This document shows positions 8,559 to 55,484 of a stretch of DNA of 64,000 nucleotides, in pieces. The notes under the pieces were generated by a model, which made no database searches, was not told where the DNA came from, and saw nothing but the letters and a program-made list of their open reading frames with translations. The DNA lies in IMG/VR virus record IMGVR_UViG_3300017565_000001, positions 360,530 through 424,529 of that record, one strand, 5' to 3'. The position numbers and the translations under genes are program-made. Origin of the DNA: a virus. Lineage: Duplodnaviria > Heunggongvirae > Uroviricota > Caudoviricetes. Position 1 is the first letter of the stretch, and each line of letters begins with the position of its first letter.

Positions 8559-10462
8559 GCTGTGGGGTTGTATCCCCTGTAGGCGATTGAACGCGGCTCA
8601 ATGAAGTTGCGGAAATAGGCCGTGATAGCCCCTACGGTCTTGGGAGAACCTTTGTCGAAAAAGATCCAAGGGTTCGCATTCGCCGCGTCTGAACCAGCAA
8701 CTGAAACACCCGTTGCTGAACTATCCCCTAGGATCAATTTTGCGGCTGTTCTAGGGCCTGCAAAGTGAGCCATGTACAGGTGAGTGTTCGTAGGGCTTGC
8801 AACCCCATATCGCCTAAGAGCAGCACCGTTTTCTTTTGTAAGAAATGCAGCCATTAATGCGTTAGCGTATGGATCAAAACGATTATTGGGGATGTTGTAA
8901 CGAGATCCATAGTTATTGTAGAGGTTGTCCCAAGTTGCGTTGAGGATCTGATACAAGCCCTTAGCTGATGAGTAAGGCTTGCCAGTCTTCTTGTTCATTG
9001 GGATAGCGTTGGGGTTGAAGCTACTTTCCTTTTCGGCCATAGCCATCATAAAGCCAAAGTCAACGCCGACCACTTCACTAGCTCGACGAATCGCAGCAAC
9101 CACGTCCTCAGAAACATTAAAGGCGCCAATCTTTACCTTCTTGGCTTCTGCTTCTGCATCATATTCGACATCTTTCACTTCACCATCTCCAGTTCGTTGT
9201 TCTTTTGTTTGTGGAGCACTTTCAATTGGAGTATTGGGTGGAACGTCCGTCAACTGATCACCTGTACCCCTAATGGCAGCCGTTTGCCCCGGAATATCCC
9301 CTTGTGGGGGATCTGTGTTGTTGGTCTTGGGGTGACCATTCCATGGCTCATGCGTGGGCATTACACTCACAGTCACATCAACGGTACCCTTACGGTCGGA
9401 TCTAGTGAATGTGCCGGGAGTCGTGGCATCGGCTGCGTTGCCAATGTTATCGTAAATCATGCCATCTCGATAGATGGTATCAGCCTTAGTATTGTGAATT
9501 GGAGTGCTCTGATTGATCACACTCATGCCAGTTTGATGAATGCCTGCGCCCGCCCATGTCAATACATCGGCACCAGCCTTCATATTGATGTTTTGACCAG
9601 CATCCAGGTTGATATTTCGATCAGCTCTGAAGTTGAGATCTTGTTCAGCCCTAACGCTTGCACTGCCAGCCGTATAAACGTTCACACCATCATCACTCAA
9701 CTCCAACCAGGTATTACCCTTCTTGGTGTTCATGTAGATGTAGCCGTTCGTTTCATGCACAAGTATCTGGACTCCAGAACGAGTGCGGAAACGCATGTAT
9801 TCATTGGTGATGTCGTCGTCTATGTACAGTTGATGCGACCGTGGAGTCAGCAGACCATACACCTTTGATGGCGCCTCACGTCTCGCACTAGCGTCAGTGG
9901 GTCCACGTTCAAAGTCACTGTAGAGTCCTTGTGCCAACAACCCCTGATGCAACGGGGTGAAGCGTGGACGAGTGGGTGAATTGGGGGTGACGCTACCATC
10001 CTTCTTGTTGTATTCAGTGACTGGTGGCAAGATACCCTGTTGACCCTGGCTGAATGACACATTGCTGGCAACTCCAGGAACCATGTGATTCATGTTCTGT
10101 TGCCATACACATGCAAACCAGAAACCCTTTGTGGGTTCACCATTAAGGAAGGTGACCAGAACTTCGTTATTGAGATCTGGTGGTACAAACCACATACCGT
10201 AGCTAACCTGGCTACCATCCATGCTCTGTGATCCATTCACGTTTGCATCGATGTTCGACACACCTGCAAATGGGCTCGCATAGCTGACGACAAACCAACG
10301 ATCACGGTCGTTGGGATCCCCACCAAATTCAGGAATGTAAACGGCCAGACGTCCCATCTTTTGGACGTCTGTATTGCTTTTCACGATGCCAATATAGATT
10401 TTGCTGTCGTTTGGGCGACCAAATCCTGGCTCGTTATTATATCCTGGTTGCTTTTTCATCAC
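8555..10462 (-). CDS. Baseplate hub/spike protein (gp5/VgrG-like) with C-terminal lytic transglycosylase (SLT) domain
   Basis: N-terminal OB-fold pattern (DVQKMGRLAVYIP...PPDLNNEVLVTF), beta-helix-like repeats, PTHEPW, then AEKESSFNPNA...SAKGLYQI...YMAHFAG SLT motifs. Confidence 0.8.
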   Translation of the reverse strand: MMKKQPGYNNEPGFGRPNDSKIYIGIVKSNTDVQKMGRLAVYIPEFGGDPNDRDRWFVVSYASPFAGVSNIDANVNGSQSMDGSQVSYGMWFVPPDLNNEVLVTFLNGEPTKGFWFACVWQQNMNHMVPGVASNVSFSQGQQGILPPVTEYNKKDGSVTPNSPTRPRFTPLHQGLLAQGLYSDFERGPTDASARREAPSKVYGLLTPRSHQLYIDDDITNEYMRFRTRSGVQILVHETNGYIYMNTKKGNTWLELSDDGVNVYTAGSASVRAEQDLNFRADRNINLDAGQNINMKAGADVLTWAGAGIHQTGMSVINQSTPIHNTKADTIYRDGMIYDNIGNAADATTPGTFTRSDRKGTVDVTVSVMPTHEPWNGHPKTNNTDPPQGDIPGQTAAIRGTGDQLTDVPPNTPIESAPQTKEQRTGDGEVKDVEYDAEAEAKKVKIGAFNVSEDVVAAIRRASEVVGVDFGFMMAMAEKESSFNPNAIPMNKKTGKPYSSAKGLYQILNATWDNLYNNYGSRYNIPNNRFDPYANALMAAFLTKENGAALRRYGVASPTNTHLYMAHFAGPRTAAKLILGDSSATGVSVAGSDAANANPWIFFDKGSPKTVGAITAYFRNFIEPRSIAYRGYNPTA

Positions 10463-12957
10463 GTACCTTTGTTCTTGTTCTGATCAACTTGTTCAGGTTT
10501 CCAACCGAATGCTTGGAAAATCTGATACAGGGGCATCCGTTGGGCATCTATACGTTGACGAAACATACCACCTTCAAAGTGGTGATTAATTTTGGTGACC
10601 TTGTAAACACCCGTAAACGTATCATTTTCATTGAAAACGGGATTGTTGGTGTTGTCATCATATCCTTGTGGATATTTGAATTTCAACAGAAATAGTATGT
10701 CACCATCGTCCAAATTGGTTCGAGTTGGTTCATTCTTGTTCAAATTATCTCGAACAATGTTTGAACTAGCACCAGCCTGATAGTAATTTGTGAACGAGCG
10801 TTCCAAACCACCTGCCCCTAGCCAATATGGATCACCGATAATCTCCATACTCAAATTCTGCAGGGAGCCACCTTGAGTGGAGTACAATTGATCCATTACC
10901 GCACCGTAAATCGAACGATCTCGGTGGTAATAATCCGGGAATGCACCACTCATAAGGAACCTAGTGTCTTCGTTTGATTGCTGGATAGTTACTGGCATGG
11001 GTGCTTGTTGCATCAATGCCTTGCTTTCTTCTTTAACTTCTTCAGCATATTTGATTGCCGTGCGATCAGGAGCAATGGTACCAATACGAGACTGTGCAAT
11101 GCGGTTAAAATCCTGAATGGAATTACCCAAAGTACGATTCAATGAGTCAATTCGATTCTGAATGTCATCAACATCGGCACCAACAAATTCTTTATATTTG
11201 TCAAGTTCTTGACGTTGCTTGTCGATTTGTGCTTGCAAATCTAGTTGCTTCGCCTTATCAGTAGTCTTGGCCTGCTCGTCTTCAAGCTGACGGACCCTGG
11301 TGGTTCTATTACCAATTTCGTCACGTTGACGAACCAAATCAGCCAATTCTCGTTGATCTTTTGTGATACTTTCACGGTTCAAATACATGGCATGGGTAGT
11401 ATTGGATTCAATCGAATTACCAAAACCAGCCACACGCGGTAGCAAAGCCGCCCACGTTGTATTGAACGAAATGTCCAGATTTGTGACTTCGGTGTTTAAA
11501 CCAGTGAACAAATAATCATATCGTTTGGACAAATAGCCAGCCTTGCGCATAGTAAGGACGTTTCTGGCTTGTGCCCTGGGGTCTTTACTGATATCAACTT
11601 GAGCTGACGAAATAATTGGCTCTTGGGTGAAATATGGGATGACTGTGAAGATGTACTTGAGTTTGTAGCTTTCAGTCACATGATCGTAATCATTGATTTC
11701 AACTGTTGGAACCACCCTAAACACAACGGTACTCTTGATCTCCTTCTTGCCATCTGTCAAGTTGGATTGTGTCATTACAGCCTTACCAAGCTTTTGTGCT
11801 GCTTCGCTGTTGGCCATAAGCATTTCAACGATGTCGTGAATCTTAGCACCACGACCGAATGTACCAGTCGCATTACCAGCACCATCCAGGGAAAGATGTC
11901 GTTGTGTGTTCACATCTTGTTCGTTTGCAGAAACGATTTTGAAACCAGCAGGATCGATTTCCTGACCATCGTATATGAACTTTTGGACTCGGAATTCGTA
12001 AAGTCGATAGGTGGGGTCTTTGTACATTTCAGCATAAGCTTTGTTCAAAGATTCAGCCAATGCACTCAACATTGCTCCTACGGTATTTGCTTGAGGCATC
12101 ATGCTGAATGGAAGAGTATAGTCGTCACCATTTAGAGTGGCCTCTTCAAACGGCATCATAGTCATATGATACGTGCTTCCCTCTTCCGTGAAATTAGTCT
12201 GCACATCAAGAATCTTCAAGAAATACAACCATGAACCCTTATTGGGGAAATCGGCACATGGGTTTATGGCAAATGTACCATCTTCGTTATAGCCCTGGAA
12301 ACGAACCTCCAGAAAATACGACATCTTGGCGAAATTCCTAACCTTCAATTCACGAGCTGAATTGGCAACCATGTCCATGAAATTCACACCCATGGGTTCC
12401 TTAATCACCATATCGATTTTGGTGGCACTCATGCTGCGAGTCTTGGGATTGGGTGATGGCACTGTTTCAATATTCAAACTCATGATGCTGAGTCCAGTAG
12501 TGCCTGTTTCCACGATAGTTGTTTGTTTGCGTCCACTGATTTCCTTTAACAATGAAGGATAATCAGTAATGTTGGAATAATTGAATGGGCTATCATCAGT
12601 CATAAACAGGCGAGCGTGATAGGTGGCTTGGCGCACACCACTCAACACATTCGCATTCCAACCATCCAAAGAGTTCAGAGCCTCAAAGGGAGTATCAGGG
12701 TTGATACCTTCAGGAGTTTGTGATGGCTGCGTTTTGGCATTTTGTTCGGCCTGAGCCTTCTGCGCTGCTTCGGTCTTCTTGGCAACTTCTTCTAGTTCCT
12801 TGAGTTTGGTTTTTCCAAACTCAACCGCCTGACCGGCAGCGTCATATACCGTGCTTACGGCATTAGTTACCTTGGAGGTAAGAGTATCAAAAAGCGAATT
12901 CCCTTGGCTTGGTGCTGGGGAATCCGAATCTACAAAGTCTGGCGTCTTATTTGCCAT
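10459..12957 (-). CDS. Baseplate hub protein (gp27-like)
   Basis: 832 aa; C-terminal IIGDPYWL and FTGVYKVTKINHHFEGGMFRQRI hub motifs; upstream of gp5-like gene. Confidence 0.65.
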   Translation of the reverse strand: MANKTPDFVDSDSPAPSQGNSLFDTLTSKVTNAVSTVYDAAGQAVEFGKTKLKELEEVAKKTEAAQKAQAEQNAKTQPSQTPEGINPDTPFEALNSLDGWNANVLSGVRQATYHARLFMTDDSPFNYSNITDYPSLLKEISGRKQTTIVETGTTGLSIMSLNIETVPSPNPKTRSMSATKIDMVIKEPMGVNFMDMVANSARELKVRNFAKMSYFLEVRFQGYNEDGTFAINPCADFPNKGSWLYFLKILDVQTNFTEEGSTYHMTMMPFEEATLNGDDYTLPFSMMPQANTVGAMLSALAESLNKAYAEMYKDPTYRLYEFRVQKFIYDGQEIDPAGFKIVSANEQDVNTQRHLSLDGAGNATGTFGRGAKIHDIVEMLMANSEAAQKLGKAVMTQSNLTDGKKEIKSTVVFRVVPTVEINDYDHVTESYKLKYIFTVIPYFTQEPIISSAQVDISKDPRAQARNVLTMRKAGYLSKRYDYLFTGLNTEVTNLDISFNTTWAALLPRVAGFGNSIESNTTHAMYLNRESITKDQRELADLVRQRDEIGNRTTRVRQLEDEQAKTTDKAKQLDLQAQIDKQRQELDKYKEFVGADVDDIQNRIDSLNRTLGNSIQDFNRIAQSRIGTIAPDRTAIKYAEEVKEESKALMQQAPMPVTIQQSNEDTRFLMSGAFPDYYHRDRSIYGAVMDQLYSTQGGSLQNLSMEIIGDPYWLGAGGLERSFTNYYQAGASSNIVRDNLNKNEPTRTNLDDGDILFLLKFKYPQGYDDNTNNPVFNENDTFTGVYKVTKINHHFEGGMFRQRIDAQRMPLYQIFQAFGWKPEQVDQNKNKGT

Positions 12958-50895: not shown

Positions 50896-53829
50896 ATGGC
50901 AAATCTAGTGAGTCCAGGCGTACAAGTTACCGTCATTGATGAGAGCTTTTACGCATCGTCTGGACCTGGCACAGTTCCTCTGATTGTGATTGCCACCCGC
51001 AGCAACAAGCCTTCGCCTACTGGCACTGGCATTGCTCCTGGTACAGTTCAAAGCGAAGTAAACAAACCATTCATCGCAACAAGTCAGCGTGAGCTGATTC
51101 AAACGTTTGGTAACCCTAATTTTGTGACCGTTCAAGGTACGCCTGTACATGGTCACGAACTGAACGAATACGGCCTCCACGCCGCTTATCAGTACCTGGG
51201 TATCAGCAACCGTGCATACGTGATGCGTGCTGACATTGACTTGGGCCAATTGGATCCAAGCGTTTCGGCTCCACGTGGTGAACCCCTGAATGGTACATAC
51301 TGGTTTGATCTGAGCGAAACACAATTCGGAGTTTTTCAAAGTTCGGGCGCGATCTCGTTGGATCCGTTCCTGAAGCAAAGCGTTCTGGTGGTTTCTAACC
51401 CTGACGAAGTCGATCAAAATACCGGTAAGCCCCTGGGTTCTCTGGGTGAGAACGGTGACTTCGCCATTGTTACTGCCGAAGCAACCAACCGCGTTTTTGA
51501 AAAGGTCCCAACTTCTAACGGTTCCCTGTGGCTTAACGTTGGCTCACGTGCTTGGACGATGTCTCGTTCCTTCGTGCGTGGTTCACAAGCTGCTGGCACT
51601 GTGGTTGTTGGTAACAGTTTTAACCTGAACAACGTGACAATCGTTCTGAACAGCACGAACTTGGGTCAAATTGTAAACGACATCAATGACGCTATTCAAG
51701 CTTCATCGGTACTGAGCGACTTGACTGATCCTCAGAATCCAATTCCTTACGTGATCGCAAGCGTTGATTCGAGTGGCTTCCTGAAGTTCAACTTCGTTCT
51801 GCCATCGATCACACTAGCTAACGTGACTGGTACTCCCCTGACTGATCTGGGTCTGGCTGCTGGTACTTTCAATGGTACTAAGCTCACATATGCCCCTCAC
51901 AACCGTGTTCCACAGAGCTCTGTTGCTGGTGACGTATGGATCAAGACCACTTCTCTGAACGGTGGTGCCAAGTATGTCGTAAAGTTCTACAATGCAACAC
52001 AAGGCCAATTCGTTACCGTAGATGCTCCATTCTACGCTGATGACGCCGCCGCATCGGTTGCGTTGGGTTCGAACCCACAAGTTGGTACTCTGTATATTCA
52101 GTACAACCCAGAAGGCACTAGCCAGCAAGCTCTGGCCGGCCAACTGATCAAGCGTTGGAACGGTTCTGTTTGGGAACAACTGTCGTACGAACAAGACGAA
52201 CAAGCTCCTACGACTGATCCCGAAGATGGTACGATGTGGTACAACGTTGATTTCCGTGCTGACATTATGGTCAATGACGGCGATCAGTGGGTTGGTTACC
52301 GCAAGATGTATCCCGCTACTGACCCCAACGGTGTTGCTCTAATGAGCGTAGCTCCTTTGGCTCAAAGCGATGAAACTCCATTGGTCGACAACGACTTGTG
52401 GTTGGACACGAGCGATCTGGAAAATTATCCAGCTCTGTATCGTTACAACGCAGCAAGCCGCCGCTGGACTCAAATCGACAATACGGATCAAACTACGCCG
52501 TTCGGTATCGTGTTTGCTGACGCTCGTGAAAACAGCGGTCCATCTTACATGGGTGCTTCGAACGACTACGTTCGCAACTCTGAAGAAATGAAGGACATGG
52601 TCCTGAGTAACTTCGTTGATCCTGATTGCGTTGATCCTCGCACATACACTGGTGGTTGCCTGTTGTTCAACACACGTTTCGGTACGTACAACGTAAAGGA
52701 ATGGAAGCCTGAGTGGTTTGCACTGGGTGGTTTTGACGACAACACAGACTTCACCTTCGAAGAGTATGAAGTGGGTGGTGGATTCTATATTGATGGCGGC
52801 CAAGCCGTGCCTATCAAGTTCCCAGCACTGGAAAAGGCTGGTCGTTGGGTTACCACAAGCGGCAATGCAGTTGATGGTTCGCCATACATGGGTCGTAAGG
52901 CTCAACGTATCATGGTCGTTAAGGCCCTGAGCGCAACTGTTGCAGCAAACGAAGACATCCGTTCGGAATTGATTTACTTCAACTTGATGGCCGTTCCTGG
53001 TTACCCAGAACTGATCGACGAGATGGTAATTCTGAACACGGACAAGAAGGAAGTCAGCTTCATCGTTGGCGACACCCCTGCTCGTTTGGCTCCAAGTGGT
53101 ACAGAAATTCAACGTTGGGCTACAAATGCCAACAACGCCGCCAGCAATGGTGACGCTGGTCTGACTTCGAGCAATCCATACATTGGTATCTACTACCCAT
53201 GGGGTTTGACAACGAACTATGACGGTAACGAAATCATGGTTCCACCTTCCACGATCGCTCTGCGTACTATGGCTTATAACGACCAAGTGTCGTATCCATG
53301 GTTTGCTCCAGCGGGCTTTACTCGTGGTCTGGTTACCAATGCAAGCTCGGTAGGTTATTTGGACGAGGAAGGTGAATACGCTCCCGTTATCCTGAATCAA
53401 GGACAACGCGATGTTCTGTACACCAACAAGATCAACCCTATCGCTTACATTCCAAACCGTGGTCTGGTTGTTTATGGTCAGAAGACACTGAACCCAGTTG
53501 ACAGTGCCTTGGATCGCGTGAACGTTGCTCGTTTGACCAACTACATGCGTTACAACCTGGACAATCTGGCTAAGCCTTTCTTGTTCGAACAAAACGATTC
53601 GCAAACACGTGACAGCTTCCGCGTTACGATTGAACGATTCCTCATGGGTCTCGTCGGTCAGCGCGCTCTGGAAGACTTCTTGGTAGTTTGTGATGAGTCG
53701 AACAATACACCAGAACGTCGTGATCGCAACGAATTGTGGGCAGATATCATGATTCAGCCAATCAAGGCTGTTGAATTCATCTACTTGCCAATTCGTATCC
53801 GTAACAGCGGTGATTCTCTGGAGTTGTAA
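50896..53829 (+). CDS. Tail sheath protein, gp18-like
   Basis: LVSPGVQVTVIDES, PWFAPAGFTRG, LYTNKINPI, SALDRVNVARL; late promoter 50856-62. Confidence 0.95.
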   Translation: MANLVSPGVQVTVIDESFYASSGPGTVPLIVIATRSNKPSPTGTGIAPGTVQSEVNKPFIATSQRELIQTFGNPNFVTVQGTPVHGHELNEYGLHAAYQYLGISNRAYVMRADIDLGQLDPSVSAPRGEPLNGTYWFDLSETQFGVFQSSGAISLDPFLKQSVLVVSNPDEVDQNTGKPLGSLGENGDFAIVTAEATNRVFEKVPTSNGSLWLNVGSRAWTMSRSFVRGSQAAGTVVVGNSFNLNNVTIVLNSTNLGQIVNDINDAIQASSVLSDLTDPQNPIPYVIASVDSSGFLKFNFVLPSITLANVTGTPLTDLGLAAGTFNGTKLTYAPHNRVPQSSVAGDVWIKTTSLNGGAKYVVKFYNATQGQFVTVDAPFYADDAAASVALGSNPQVGTLYIQYNPEGTSQQALAGQLIKRWNGSVWEQLSYEQDEQAPTTDPEDGTMWYNVDFRADIMVNDGDQWVGYRKMYPATDPNGVALMSVAPLAQSDETPLVDNDLWLDTSDLENYPALYRYNAASRRWTQIDNTDQTTPFGIVFADARENSGPSYMGASNDYVRNSEEMKDMVLSNFVDPDCVDPRTYTGGCLLFNTRFGTYNVKEWKPEWFALGGFDDNTDFTFEEYEVGGGFYIDGGQAVPIKFPALEKAGRWVTTSGNAVDGSPYMGRKAQRIMVVKALSATVAANEDIRSELIYFNLMAVPGYPELIDEMVILNTDKKEVSFIVGDTPARLAPSGTEIQRWATNANNAASNGDAGLTSSNPYIGIYYPWGLTTNYDGNEIMVPPSTIALRTMAYNDQVSYPWFAPAGFTRGLVTNASSVGYLDEEGEYAPVILNQGQRDVLYTNKINPIAYIPNRGLVVYGQKTLNPVDSALDRVNVARLTNYMRYNLDNLAKPFLFEQNDSQTRDSFRVTIERFLMGLVGQRALEDFLVVCDESNNTPERRDRNELWADIMIQPIKAVEFIYLPIRIRNSGDSLEL

Positions 53830-53847: not shown

Positions 53848-53878
53848 AAAATGGGCATCCTTTGTGGTGCCCATTTTT
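53848..53878 (+). terminator. Intrinsic terminator after sheath gene
   Basis: AAAATGGGCATC-CTTTGT-GGTGCCCATTTTT. Confidence 0.8.
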
Positions 53879-53904
53879 ATGACTGAAAAACGAAGAAATT
53901 TCAA

Positions 53905-54555
53905 AATTGTTATTGAGGATGCTACGCTCACTCAGAACGTATTTCTACTCAACGCCCCCAATAAGAATGCAGCCATAACCCAACTCAGTTGGTTGTTCAA
54001 TCGCATGGGTGTGACTGTTGTGGGTGATTTGACTCGTCGAATCCGACGGTTTAGCATCCTGAAGGGCAAGCTGCGTGGTTCGAAGGTTACTGCTCCAGCA
54101 CGAAGCCGAAAATCTTCCAAAGGTTCACCCCGATGCACCATTTACAGTTTGGTGCCGGACAATATCTCAACCTGGGAGACCCCCAGATCATATCGTGCCA
54201 AACGTGCGATCAGAATGCGAGTTGTTGATTTGTACTACAAGAAAAAGCTTGACACGAAAGCAAAAGGCAACTAATCTAATTGTTGACCGCAAGGTATTCA
54301 GTCGAAGGAGAGCAATCTCCAGAACCCATAAGATATTCACTGGTGACTGGGAGGTGGGTGCGACCCACACTATGGCAAGCCCTCTGTCGCAGGAGGGGGT
54401 GAATATTGATCCCGAGTTTACGGGGATAGATTGAAGGGCACGTTTATCAGTTAGTTGGTCCCAACAGCAATGACTTGTCTCCGCGTCAAGGAACCAGACG
54501 GGTGATTGATAAACAAAGAATGAGCGAGTGATTTCAGTCACTCGCTCATTCACCA
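53905..54555 (+). ncRNA. Candidate large structured non-coding RNA (~640 nt), family unassigned
   Basis: More than 12 nested helices found by eye, G-U pairs favouring the + strand, two GCAA tetraloops; see findings. Confidence 0.6.
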
Positions 54556-54833
54556 TTCCTACGCTTTTCCCATAATCTCAACATACGCTCACTCTGATGA
54601 GCTTTCTCCGATTCGGTCATGGGTCGGTGCTTCTTACCCACATTTCCTTCCCGAATCTTCGCCCTAGTTTCGATTGAACGAGGCTGTCCCCAGTTTGGAT
54701 TGGCCTCACCAGTCTTTGAACGTCTGATGGCCTCAACGTGCTCAGACGTCTTCTTTTTGCCCCGTAGAGCATTCCGAATCTTGTCTTTAGTTTCTTGAGA
54801 ATGTGCCACTTTCAACCTTGTAAATGTTGTCAC
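54546..54833 (-). CDS. NUMOD3-repeat basic protein with no nuclease domain
   Basis: HSQETKDKIR, KTSEHVEAIR, GEANPNWGQPRSIETRAKIR; minus-strand late promoter 54846-52; start uncertain. Confidence 0.7.
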   Translation of the reverse strand: MTTFTRLKVAHSQETKDKIRNALRGKKKTSEHVEAIRRSKTGEANPNWGQPRSIETRAKIREGNVGKKHRPMTESEKAHQSERMLRLWEKRRNGE

Positions 54834-54899
54834 TTATTCATTTGATATTTAGCAATAAATACAGATGAATATATTCATCCTTTGTAAGGAGATTTCTCT

Positions 54900-55484
54900 A
54901 TGACAACCCTATCAAGGTTTGGCGTTCCACTTGGCGGCGGTGCAGGCCGTGGTGGTATGCTTCAGCCCAAGGTAAAGTGGAAGTTCCGCGTTCGTGTTGT
55001 TAACTTTGGTCCCATCGCTGGTGGTATCGAGTTGACACAAAACGTCATGTCGGCAACTCGTCCAACTTTCCAACAGAGTGAACAAGCAGTTCACTCGTAC
55101 AACTCGGTCGGTTACTATGGTGGTAAGCCACAATGGAACACGGTAGACATTGAAGCTCGTGATGATGTGACTAACACATTGAGCAAGCTAGTCGGTCACC
55201 AAGTCCAGAAGCAACAGAACCACTTTGAACAAACCAGCCCACTCGCTGCCAGCAACTACAAGTTCCAGATGTATTTGGAAACTCTGGATGGTGGTAACGA
55301 TGCCGTTATTGAACAATGGTTCCTGGAAGGTTGCTTCCTGACCAACGTCAACTATAGCAACTTTGATTACAGCAGCAGTGACATGGTTACTGTTTCGATG
55401 ACGGTTCGTTACGACATCGCTACTCAAAGCGGCGGCCTCATGCCTCTTCTGCCACAACTCGCCACTGGCGTCATGTTGGGTTAA
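54900..55484 (+). CDS. Tail tube protein, gp19-like
   Basis: LQPKVKWKFRV, YYGGKPQW, EQWFLEGCF...VRYD; after sheath; late promoter 54855-61, AAGGAG RBS. Confidence 0.88.
   Translation: MTTLSRFGVPLGGGAGRGGMLQPKVKWKFRVRVVNFGPIAGGIELTQNVMSATRPTFQQSEQAVHSYNSVGYYGGKPQWNTVDIEARDDVTNTLSKLVGHQVQKQQNHFEQTSPLAASNYKFQMYLETLDGGNDAVIEQWFLEGCFLTNVNYSNFDYSSSDMVTVSMTVRYDIATQSGGLMPLLPQLATGVMLG

What the first reader, a model, noticed from the sequence alone, without database searches (positions are those of the whole stretch)
53905..54555. ~640-nt densely structured candidate RNA between tail sheath and tail tube genes
Seen: after the sheath terminator, almost the whole stretch folds into nested helices on the + strand. 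AGGATGCTA (53916-24)/TAGCATCCT (54052-60) closes a domain containing CGCTCAC/GTGGGTG, ACCCA/TGGGT and CGTCG-AATC-CGACG. Further helices: GCACCA/TGGTGC (54135-55); CTGGG/CCCAG (54172-86); ATCGTGC/GTGCGAT (54192-210); AGTTGTT/GGCAACT (54220-72); ACC-GCAA-GGT (54286-95); GGAGA-GCAA-TCTCC (54307-20). GATATTCACT/GGTGAATATT (54332-407) encloses GTGGGT-GCG-ACCCAC and a CCCT/AGGG hairpin. Then ATCCCG/CGGGGAT, GTTTATCAGTTA/TGATTGATAAAC (54442-514) and a perfect 14-bp terminal hairpin. Frequent G-U pairs and GNRA loops point to RNA, on the + strand. I could not recognise RNase P, tmRNA, group I or group II cores. Known: phages carry large ncRNAs of unclear function (GOLLD, ROOL), and phi29 uses a packaging RNA. 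Inference: an unassigned large ncRNA embedded in the morphogenesis cluster, possibly acting in assembly, packaging or counter-defence.
Basis: partly seen in the sequence, partly recalled or inferred. Interest (0 to 1): 0.9.

Follow-up and report, generated by a model that had tools for sequence, protein, structure and literature searches.

The report
New pseudoknotted phage RNA plus ORF
The flagged 640 bases are two genes: a small fast-evolving protein gene, then a real ~240-base folded RNA from a widespread phage RNA family that is absent from Rfam and often lies in phage tRNA gene clusters or beside Ro60 genes; its function is unknown.

Summary
Partly confirmed. The stretch is not one 640-nt RNA.

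- **53879-54274 (+)** is a protein gene (131 aa). It has full-length homologues, mostly third-codon-position changes, pN/pS of 0.11-0.25 in its N-terminal domain, and a confident AlphaFold core.
- **54283-54514 (+)** is a genuine structured RNA. It has 7 helices, a pseudoknot (CCC 54325-27 with GGG 54349-51) and complementary, covarying hairpin loops.
- **Covariation:** across 67 homologues, 89% of cells pair, against about 40% in slid controls, and 36 of 38 pairs show changes on both sides. The pseudoknot's third pair is C-G or U-A, never mixed (0/67).
- **Folding energy** alone is unremarkable (z about -1).
- **Known families:** none of 4227 Rfam families matches, including YrlA, group I introns, HDV-like ribozymes, pRNA, GOLLD and ROOL.
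- **Distribution:** found in at least 66 further viral contigs. It lies in tRNA arrays (same strand, abutting tRNAs), 2-5 nt after Ro60 genes, before family A DNA polymerase genes, or between sheath and tube.
- **In this phage** it looks like a stand-alone gene, with a sigma-70-like promoter and a terminal hairpin.

Function is unknown. My best guess is a trans-acting stable RNA tied to tRNA or RNA-surveillance biology. A sequence look-up found no copy in other windows of the scan.

The parts
53851..53878 (+). Hairpin plus T-run after the tail sheath stop codon (53827-29); likely the sheath terminator. It abuts the ATG of the small ORF.
   Evidence: Read from the sequence. The scan tool did not list it because its loop is 10 nt.
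53879..54274 (+). Small protein gene (P0001, 131 aa). It has a conserved N-terminal RNFKI motif, a disordered basic insert (about residues 50-85) and a conserved C-terminal strand.
   Evidence: Full-length homologues at 64% and 51% identity. A profile search found 31 representative members. Third-codon-position changes dominate, and pN/pS is 0.36-0.65 overall and 0.11-0.25 in the N-terminal domain against the two nearest relatives. AlphaFold mean pLDDT is 79, with blocks at 90 or above for residues 11-50 and 91-120. No Pfam, PHROG or PDB fold match.
54249..54277 (+). Sigma-70-like promoter of the RNA: TTGACA, 17 nt, TAATCT. It overlaps the end of the ORF.
   Evidence: The same position holds better matches in relatives: TTGCAG-16-TATAAT in L004, TTGCAC-17-TATAAT in L030, TTGATA-16-TATTAT in L034. 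The window's own -10 is weak (3 of 6) and the scanner did not list it. Inferred, not shown.
54286..54295 (+). H1: 3-bp hairpin with a GNRA loop. It is variable or replaced in distant relatives.
   Evidence: 75% of cells paired across 67 sequences; weakest helix.
54307..54320 (+). H2: 5-bp hairpin.
   Evidence: Covaries; 92% of cells paired across 67 sequences.
54322..54331 (+). Near-invariant GAACC(C/U)AUAA. CCC (54325-27) is the 5' strand of the pseudoknot.
54332..54407 (+). Core three-way junction. H3 (54332-41 with 54398-407, 10 bp) encloses GGUGACUGGG, whose GGG at 54349-51 is the pseudoknot 3' strand. It also encloses H4 (54346-48 with 54374-76), hairpin H4a (54354-68) and hairpin H4b (54380-85 with 54392-97).
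   Evidence: All 10 H3 pairs change on both sides. The pseudoknot's third pair is C-G in 29 and U-A in 38 of 67 sequences, never mixed. The H4a and H4b loops (UGCGA and UCGCA here) are complementary in six sequence variants; own-pair score is 4.5 against 2.7 for cross pairs.
54410..54425 (+). H5: 5-bp hairpin with a 6-nt loop (AGUUUA here).
   Evidence: 94% of cells paired across 67 sequences, and all 5 pairs change on both sides.
54442..54514 (+). H6: a 3' domain with a long closing stem around two or three hairpins, giving a cloverleaf-like outline. It is variable.
   Evidence: The closing stem covaries by eye among window, L024, L028, L004, L005 and L030. A plain intrinsic terminator replaces it in L044 and L034. 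ARAGORN calls a tRNA-Gln at this position in L150. ARAGORN finds no tRNA in the window.
54518..54551 (.). 14-bp hairpin that ends both converging transcripts. Its T-run lies on the minus strand.
   Evidence: Relatives L028, L030, L031, L044 and L034 have ordinary + strand terminators after the RNA.
54546..54833 (-). Convergent 95-aa gene made only of NUMOD3 motifs (the DNA-binding part of homing endonucleases). It is a neighbour, not part of the RNA.
   Evidence: Pfam NUMOD3 at E = 2.4e-11 and PHROG homing endonuclease. Also present in L024.

Best explanation
The stretch holds two separate genes.

(1) 53879-54274 encodes a small, rapidly evolving basic protein of unknown function.

(2) 54283 to about 54514 (up to 54551 with the terminal hairpin) is the gene of a stable structured RNA. 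It belongs to a widespread phage RNA family that is not in Rfam.

Shown:
- The fold has two 5' hairpins, an H-type pseudoknot (CCC with GGG), a 10-bp helix closing a three-way junction whose two hairpin loops are mutually complementary, a further hairpin, and a variable cloverleaf-like 3' domain.
- The family recurs in very different phages, in different neighbourhoods and in either orientation relative to its neighbours. It therefore acts as a self-contained unit, not as a signal for the sheath or tube messages.

Inferred:
- In this phage it is transcribed on its own from a host-type (sigma-70-like) promoter and ends at the hairpin. In many other phages it is co-transcribed with tRNAs and cut out with them.

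Guess (about 0.3): it works in trans as a folded adaptor or decoy in tRNA or RNA-surveillance biology. That is the company it keeps: tRNA and tmRNA arrays, Ro60/Y-RNA loci and an RNA ligase gene. It would bind a protein such as Ro60, a tRNA-handling enzyme or a host nuclease through its invariant junction nucleotides. The phage's own morphogenesis genes are probably only its landing site.
For: Protein gene:
- Homologues and a 31-member family.
- Codon-position bias and pN/pS.
- Confident fold.
- The family HMM is found only in RNA-bearing loci: 9 of 14, against 0 of about 80 loci without the RNA.

RNA is real:
- Between window and L008, the RNA region aligns with only scattered differences, whereas the adjacent ORF product is 51% identical and its middle aligns poorly.
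- Compensatory changes appear on an unfitted alignment.
- Pair counts far exceed shuffles and slid controls.
- Pseudoknot covariation is 38 U-A, 29 C-G and 0 mixed. The search pattern that found most of the sequences allowed all four combinations.
- Loop-loop complementarity is kept through six sequence variants.
- Every + frame has stops in all 10 homologues tested, and the minus-strand ORF 54188-54556 is not conserved.

New family:
- No Rfam match at E up to 1-5 on the window or on 7 homologous loci, nor at E up to 0.1 on 5 Ro60-bearing loci.

Stand-alone unit:
- Promoter-like hexamers sit at a fixed distance upstream and terminators follow.
- Inverted orientation in L038.
- Single copy per genome.

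Neighbourhoods:
- 66 of 80 pattern hits in viral contigs are full-length matches.
- A tRNA lies within 500 nt in 20 of 67 loci, and the nearest tRNA is on the same strand in 24 of 24.
- The Ro60 (TROVE + vWA) stop codon lies 2-5 nt before the RNA in L220 and L196. Ro60 lies within 4 kb in L214, L156, L173 and Phosso.
- Family A DNA polymerase follows in about 11 loci.
- An RNA ligase gene and homing endonuclease genes are among the neighbours.
Against:
- The window's own -10 hexamer is weak and its hairpin lacks a + strand T-run.
- Folding energy is not better than shuffles.
- The functional guess rests on neighbourhood only.
- Only 5 of 50 RNA-bearing records encode Ro60, and only 1 of 7 near-complete ones. 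This phage's complete genome has none.
- In L220 and L173 a separate weak Y-RNA-like match lies on the other side of Ro60. The new RNA is therefore not the obvious Y RNA.
- 43 of 67 loci show no tRNA within 3 kb.
- The 52 extra sequences were found with a pattern containing the two invariant motifs, so conservation of those motifs in the large alignment is partly by construction.
- The alignments used for pair counts were fitted to the model.
Confidence: 0.6

Rival explanations
1. The core is a self-cleaving or processing ribozyme of a new class. It would trim the tRNAs or tRNA-like domain joined to it, as proposed for the HDV-like theta ribozymes of gut phages.
For: - The core abuts tRNAs on the same strand (0-27 nt) in 10 loci.
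- In the sheath-tube clade it is followed by a cloverleaf-like domain, which ARAGORN calls tRNA-Gln in L150.
- The pseudoknot, the invariant junction purines and the compact size (about 105-150 nt) suit a catalytic core.
- Theta ribozymes are often associated with phage tRNA genes and are proposed to cut tRNA 3' trailers (PMC10879173).
Against: - No match to any Rfam ribozyme family.
- The helix order does not fit the HDV fold. Only 6 nt, with no P3/L3 hairpin, lie between the 10-bp helix's 5' strand and the pseudoknot's 3' strand, and the pseudoknot has only 3-4 bp (my reading).
- Most loci have no adjacent tRNA.
- L044 and L034 carry the core with only a terminator.
Confidence: 0.13
2. The RNA assembles with itself. 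The two complementary loops pair between molecules, giving rings or cages as in phi29 pRNA, ROOL and GOLLD. The assembly holds or presents tRNAs or other cargo.
For: - The complementary loops of two hairpins on one three-way junction covary through six variants. The data do not say whether pairing is within or between molecules.
- The neighbourhood matches that of ROOL and GOLLD, described as phage RNAs 'often near tRNA islands' that form cages (10.1101/2024.12.08.627333).
Against: - The two hairpins sit side by side on one junction, the arrangement in which purine and lysine riboswitch loops pair within one molecule (my knowledge).
- The RNA is several-fold smaller than ROOL or GOLLD and matches neither Rfam model.
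Confidence: 0.12
3. The RNA and the small basic protein encoded just upstream form a dedicated RNA-protein pair.
For: - The ORF family occurs only where the RNA occurs, always directly upstream on the same strand: 9 of 14 RNA loci near sheath genes against 0 of about 80 without the RNA.
- The protein carries a long basic disordered insert.
- It diverges much faster than its neighbours: 54% identity where the sheath C-terminus is 96% identical.
Against: - The RNA family is far wider than the protein family: at least 66 further viral contigs against 31 representative proteins.
- The complete Phosso genome and three further RNA-bearing records lack the protein at E up to 0.1.
- No RNA-binding fold was recognised (best Z = 4.5).
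Confidence: 0.08
4. It is a cis-acting element: a riboswitch or leader for the downstream gene (tube, DNA polymerase), or a stabilising 3' UTR of the upstream gene.
For: - In about 11 loci the RNA lies close upstream of a family A DNA polymerase ORF; the ORF starts 8-9 nt after the RNA in L210 and L190.
- In L044 and L034 the core is followed directly by a terminator, as in termination-type riboswitches.
- The tertiary complexity is aptamer-like.
Against: - Neighbours differ completely between loci.
- It is inverted relative to sheath and tube in L038.
- In the window a convergent gene and a separate late promoter lie between the RNA and the tube gene.
- In tRNA arrays it has tRNAs on both sides.
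Confidence: 0.05
5. One reading: one ~640-nt RNA (53905-54555) dedicated to tail or head assembly or to DNA packaging.
For: It lies between the sheath and tube genes in this phage and in about 13 further viral contigs, plus the loci reached through the tube protein. Many helices can be drawn along the whole stretch.
Against: - The 5' 370 nt are coding and their helices are not conserved.
- Most family members are outside morphogenesis clusters.
- It is absent from Atu_ph07 and from most relatives with the same sheath.
- The phage has a terminase (the syntenic L008), so a pRNA-type motor RNA is not expected.
Confidence: 0.02

Closest known systems
ROOL and GOLLD RNAs (Rfam; Breaker laboratory; cryo-EM preprint 10.1101/2024.12.08.627333)
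   Same: All are phage and prophage RNAs of unknown function, often near tRNA islands. All have elaborate covarying structure with pseudoknots, and no protein partner is known. Loop-loop contacts are prominent.
   Different: The new RNA matches neither Rfam model. Its core is about 105-150 nt (about 240 nt here), several-fold smaller; the preprint gives many GOLLD members as exceeding 800 nt. Self-assembly is untested.
Bacterial and phage Y RNAs (YrlA, Rfam RF02553) with Ro60/Rsr (PMC4201824)
   Same: In L220 and L196 the RNA starts 2-5 nt after a Ro60 gene on the same strand. In four further loci, including Phosso, it lies within 4 kb, which is the criterion used for YrlA. It sits among tRNAs and carries a cloverleaf-like 3' domain, recalling YrlA's modular design of a handle plus a tRNA-like part.
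   Different: No YrlA model match on the RNA. No T-arm or D-arm sequence motifs are seen, and the GNCGAA(N)G motif occurs in the window only, not across the family. Most carriers, this phage included, encode no Ro60. Separate weak Y-like matches flank Ro60 on its other side.
HDV-like theta ribozymes of gut phages (PMC10879173)
   Same: Both are compact pseudoknotted RNAs that lie directly beside phage tRNA genes.
   Different: No match to HDV-like Rfam families. The helix order lacks P3/L3 and the pseudoknot has only 3-4 bp. Cleavage is untested.
phi29 packaging RNA (pRNA)
   Same: Both have a three-way junction bearing two hairpins whose loops are complementary and covary between relatives (the pRNA features are from my knowledge).
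   Different: No Rfam pRNA match. The host phage is a terminase-packaging myovirus. Family members lie mostly in tRNA arrays, not by packaging genes.
Phage T4 stable RNAs rnaC and rnaD (species 1 and 2)
   Same: All are non-tRNA stable RNAs of unknown function, encoded within a phage tRNA cluster next to a homing endonuclease gene.
   Different: With filters off, the family model finds nothing in the T4 tRNA region (best 5.7 bits).

Membership tests
Any Rfam 15 family (4227 models) | A covariance-model match at or near the gathering score | tested here: not met
   No match on the RNA at E up to 1 in the window, at gathering score over the whole window, at E up to 5 on 7 homologous loci, or at E up to 0.1 on 5 Ro60-bearing loci.
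YrlA / bacterial Y RNA | Encoded within 4 kb of a Ro60 (TROVE) gene on the same strand | tested here: inconclusive
   Met in L220, L196, L214, L156, L173 and Phosso. Not met in this genome, which has no TROVE domain, or in 45 of 50 other carrier records, many of them fragments.
YrlA / bacterial Y RNA | tRNA-like T and D stem-loops and a GNCGAA(N)G motif near the 5' end (PMC4201824) | tested here: not met
   RF02553 gives no match on the RNA. The 67-sequence consensus shows no T-loop or D-loop motif. GUCGAAG occurs in the window (54301-07) but not in close relatives.
YrlA / bacterial Y RNA | Binds Ro60/Rsr | not testable with these tools
   Needs a pull-down or RIP experiment.
Group I intron | Core with P3-P7 pseudoknot and P4-P6 domain, flanked by the two exons of one gene | tested here: not met
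   No RF00028 match. No split gene: the tube protein aligns over its full length with intact homologues. Nothing stands in the position of P4-P6.
HDV-like (theta) ribozyme | Nested double pseudoknot with P1, P1.1, P2, P3 and P4 in the canonical order | tested here: not met
   No Rfam HDV-clan match. Only 6 nt lie where P3/L3 should be.
HDV-like (theta) ribozyme | Self-cleavage at its 5' end | not testable with these tools
   Needs an in vitro cleavage assay.
phi29-type pRNA | Sequence and structure match, and a location in a phi29-like genome with a pRNA-dependent motor | tested here: not met
   No Rfam pRNA match. The context is a jumbo myovirus with a large terminase.
ROOL / GOLLD | Match to the family model | tested here: not met
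tRNA (3' domain H6) | A cloverleaf recognised by a tRNA finder | tested here: not met
   ARAGORN finds no tRNA in the window. It does call a tRNA-Gln at the equivalent position in L150, so the window's domain may be a decayed relative. This is inference.
Protein-coding gene (53879-54274) | Conserved open frame with purifying selection at codon level | tested here: met

The most novel reading that the evidence does not exclude
The conserved core of about 105-150 nt is a new class of compact functional phage RNA that acts directly on tRNAs or RNA-surveillance machinery. It could be a new ribozyme that processes the tRNA or tRNA-like domain joined to it. It could instead be a second, non-YrlA type of Ro60-linked adaptor RNA that phages deploy against host RNA-targeting defences.
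Probability: 0.25. Interest if true: 0.9.

Novelty: new variant of a known kind. Interest (0 to 1): 0.78.

Why it matters
**Why the family is worth study**
- Few structured RNA families with this much tertiary architecture (pseudoknot plus covarying loop-loop pairing) remain unassigned, and past examples turned out to be ribozymes, riboswitches or self-assembling cages.
- It keeps the same company as tmRNA, tRNAs, Ro60/Y RNAs, ROOL and GOLLD. It therefore probably belongs to the poorly understood RNA toolkit that large phages bring into the cell.

**Why it is tractable**
- It is small enough for direct biochemistry and structure determination.
- One cultured carrier exists: Sinorhizobium phage Phosso on S. 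meliloti.

**Annotation**
- The work corrects the annotation of this locus. It holds one real small protein gene and one RNA gene, not a 640-nt RNA.

Tried and rejected
- **blastn against 50,697 phage records.** The whole gap gave no match. Two homologous loci matched only through their tRNAs, or not at all.
- **First motif scan of metagenome contigs** (GACTGGGNGGTGGGTGCGAC). All 12 hits were spurious, mostly reverse complements of tRNA 3' ends.
- **Genome contigs pattern scan.** 28 hits, only one real: L142, a Pirellulales MAG contig, probably a prophage.
- **Ro60 partner idea for this phage.** There is no TROVE domain in the complete 424,529-bp genome.
- **Atu_ph07.** The RNA is absent from the whole genome.
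- **T4 rnaC/rnaD homology.** None found.
- **Coding potential of the RNA region.** Rejected: stops occur in all + frames of all 10 homologues tested, and ORFs 54075-54434 (+) and 54188-54556 (-) are not conserved.
- **Fold of the small protein.** Foldseek gave nothing at E up to 0.001. The best VIA-align Z was 4.5 (AcrIE2 and ribosomal proteins), within noise.
- **Complex prediction.** Not used: it scores protein pairs only, and no protein-protein claim is made.
- **Group I, HDV-like and RNase P mappings by hand.** The helix order does not fit. Short resemblances to RNase P CR-V, to the 3' strand of vertebrate Y RNA and to group I J8/7 are recalled from memory and treated as chance.
Full report
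**Setting.** The window is the last 64 kb of a 424,529-bp phage genome with direct terminal repeats. The tail sheath gene (50896-53829) and tail tube gene (54900-55484) are clear. The closest cultured relatives are Agrobacterium phage Atu_ph07 (52% identity) and Sinorhizobium phage Phosso (48%). The finding covers most of the 1070-bp gap between sheath and tube.

**What is in the gap.** Four things lie there:
- an ORF at 53879-54274 (+);
- about 270 nt with no conserved ORF;
- a 14-bp hairpin at 54518-54551;
- a convergent 95-aa gene at 54546-54833 (-), made only of NUMOD3 motifs, the DNA-binding part of homing endonucleases.

The hairpin's T-run is on the minus strand, so it scores as the NUMOD3 gene's terminator.

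**The 5' 370 nt are a protein gene.**
- The 131-aa product has full-length homologues at 64% and 51% identity.
- A profile search of 1.8 billion representative proteins finds a small family of 31 proteins, mostly of 90-160 aa. They share an N-terminal RNFKI motif, a conserved GY, a variable basic insert and a conserved C-terminal strand.
- Against three relatives, differences concentrate at third codon positions. pN/pS is 0.36-0.65 overall. In the N-terminal domain it is 0.11-0.25 against the two nearest relatives and 0.51 against L024. It rises to 0.6-0.86 in the basic middle.
- AlphaFold gives mean pLDDT 79, with blocks at 90 or above for residues 11-50 and 91-120.
- No Pfam, PHROG or solved-structure relative is found.
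They pair at background level: 41%, 48% and 68% of cells. The eighth, AGTTGTT/GGCAACT, runs into the stop codon and was not scored.
- The gene diverges unusually fast. Window and L008 are 54% identical here, while the sheath C-terminus is 96% and the tube 98% identical.

**The 3' 240 nt are a structured RNA.**
- In the syntenic contig L008 the region after the ORF stop aligns with only scattered differences. It still aligns in L004 and L005, whose tube proteins are 71% identical, with visible compensatory changes.
- RNAalifold on a plain MAFFT alignment of six homologues finds 27 of 48 pairs with double changes.
- A covariance model of the 147-nt core and a broader one recover the RNA in further loci. 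Pair counts are 94% (13 sequences), 93.6% (15) and 89.1% (67), against 38-47% for slid partners. No shuffle of 500 reaches the paired fraction or the covariation score.
- The fold runs as follows: H1 (54286-95), H2 (54307-20), the near-invariant GAACCCAUAA (54322-31), H3 (54332-41 with 54398-407), then H5 (54410-25) and H6 (54442-53 with 54503-14). H3 encloses GGUGACUGGG, H4, H4a (54354-68) and H4b (54380-97).

**Two tertiary contacts emerge.**
- CCC (54325-27) pairs with GGG (54349-51). The third pair is C-G in 29 and U-A in 38 of 67 sequences and is never mixed, although the search pattern allowed all four combinations.
- The loops of H4a and H4b are complementary (UGCGA and UCGCA here). They stay complementary through at least six different sequences. 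The own-pair score is 4.5 against 2.7 for cross pairs; 80% of own pairs reach 4, against 13% of cross pairs.

**Further properties of the RNA.**
- G-U pairs fix the strand as +.
- Folding energy alone would not have found this RNA (z = -1.08).
- Every + frame has stops in all 10 homologues tested, and the minus-strand ORF seen in the window is not conserved.

**Transcription unit (inferred).**
- A TTGACA-17-TAATCT motif (54249-77) overlaps the end of the ORF. Relatives hold better sigma-70-like promoters at the same distance.
- Ordinary + strand intrinsic terminators follow the RNA in L028, L030, L031, L044 and L034.
- In L044 and L034 the H6 domain is missing and the terminator follows the core directly, so the core is the conserved functional part.
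- In L038 the RNA is inverted relative to sheath and tube. This excludes a role as a signal within their messages.
- The RNA is single-copy in this genome, in Phosso and in two large contigs. It is absent from the whole Atu_ph07 genome and from 75 of 80 loci that share the sheath.

**The family is much wider than this clade.**
Of the 80 loci returned, 66 carry a full-length match.
- G+C ranges from 34 to 68%. Some records are proviruses and several are near-complete genomes of 90-150 kb.
- One match lies in a Pirellulales MAG contig.

**Neighbourhoods fall into groups**:
- *Sheath-tube:* about 13 of these contigs.
- *tRNA arrays:* a tRNA lies within 500 nt in 20 of 67 loci. The nearest tRNA is on the same strand in 24 of 24, and it abuts the RNA at 0-27 nt in 10 loci. 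Phage tmRNA genes lie in several of the same arrays.
- *Ro60 (TROVE + vWA):* its stop codon lies 2-5 nt before the RNA in L220 and L196. Ro60 lies within 4 kb in L214, L156, L173 and Phosso.
- *ParB-like gene, small ORF, RNA, family A DNA polymerase:* about 11 loci.
- *Other neighbours:* homing endonuclease genes are frequent (7 HNH among 107 adjacent ORFs). An RNA ligase gene and a TnpB-type transposase gene also occur.

**Comparison with known RNAs.**
- Rfam 15 gives nothing on the RNA.
- Rfam does hold YrlA (RF02553). In Ro60-bearing loci, its weak matches and those of the nematode Y-like sbRNA family lie on the other side of Ro60, not on this RNA.
- YrlA's defining T and D arms and GNCGAA(N)G motif (PMC4201824) are not features of the family.
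- Only 5 of 50 carrier records encode Ro60, and this phage does not.
- The helix order does not fit group I introns or HDV-like ribozymes, including the tRNA-associated theta ribozymes (PMC10879173).
- T4's rnaC and rnaD are unrelated.
- By context, the nearest analogues are ROOL and GOLLD: phage RNAs near tRNA islands that self-assemble. By architecture, the nearest analogue is the three-way junction of phi29 pRNA with its complementary loops.

**The small protein and the RNA.**
- Among sheath-linked loci, the ORF family is found only directly upstream of the RNA: 9 of 14 loci with the RNA, 0 of about 80 without.
- The RNA occurs without the protein in the complete Phosso genome and in other records.
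- A dedicated pair is therefore possible only as a lineage-specific addition.

**Verdict.**
The RNA is real, on the + strand, unassigned and richly structured, but it is about 240 nt, not 640.
- The proposed link to morphogenesis is not supported.
- The most likely reading is a self-contained stable RNA gene of a new, widespread phage family. It probably acts in trans in tRNA or RNA-surveillance biology; I put that function at about 0.3.
- The live alternatives are a new ribozyme, a self-assembling RNA, and a partner of the neighbouring protein.

**Limits.**
- There are no expression data.
- The large alignment was seeded by a motif pattern and fitted to the model.
- Many contigs are fragments, so the absence of Ro60 or tRNAs from a contig is weak evidence.

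Noticed in passing
window 54546-54833 (-): A 95-aa protein made only of NUMOD3 motifs, with no nuclease domain. It converges on the RNA and shares its terminal hairpin. It is conserved in L024 (87 aa), and L008 aligns closely over the same stretch. It could be a decayed homing endonuclease or a domesticated DNA-binding protein.
   Followed up: partly
window 53879-54274 against flanks: The small ORF diverges far faster than its neighbours: 54% identity where the sheath C-terminus is 96% and the tube 98% identical. Its basic middle has pN/pS of 0.6-0.86. This pattern is consistent with relaxed constraint or an arms race.
   Followed up: partly
L001 (Atu_ph07) 9140-10795; L002 (Phosso) 10624-12288: Both cultured relatives carry a Ro60-like RNA-binding protein gene between sheath and tube. 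Atu_ph07 has a 650-bp unannotated gap between it and the tube gene. That gap holds no copy of the RNA described here and was not examined further.
   Followed up: partly
L220 7636-7700 (-); L173 8984-9046 (+): Immediately upstream of phage Ro60 genes there are near-threshold matches to the nematode Y-RNA-like sbRNA family RF01656 (37 bits against a gathering score of 38, and 28.6 bits). They may be phage Y RNAs.
   Followed up: no
L038 5487-5560 (-): A sub-threshold match to the alphaproteobacterial sRNA family mmgR/suhB (34.8 bits against a gathering score of 41; E = 0.0018), about 400 nt downstream of the RNA on the same strand in a relative.
   Followed up: no
L205, L225, L228, L213, L197, L187: Phage tRNA arrays that hold the RNA also hold tmRNA genes, called by ARAGORN with tags ending in ALAA. 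Several stable-RNA genes thus travel together.
   Followed up: no
L142 (Pirellulales MAG contig), L207, L202, L210, L190, L223: A conserved gene order recurs in G+C-rich proviruses: ParB-like gene, a 120-166-aa ORF of no known family, the RNA, then a family A DNA polymerase ORF. In L210 and L190 that ORF starts 8-9 nt after the RNA. In L142, L190 and L223 the upstream ORF ends 0-3 nt before the RNA's first base; in L210 it overlaps it by 6 nt.
   Followed up: partly
window 54860-54899 and relatives: The tube gene is preceded by a conserved AATAAATAC or CATAAATAC motif, which resembles a T4-type late promoter. In the window, a back-to-back copy on the minus strand faces the NUMOD3 gene.
   Followed up: no
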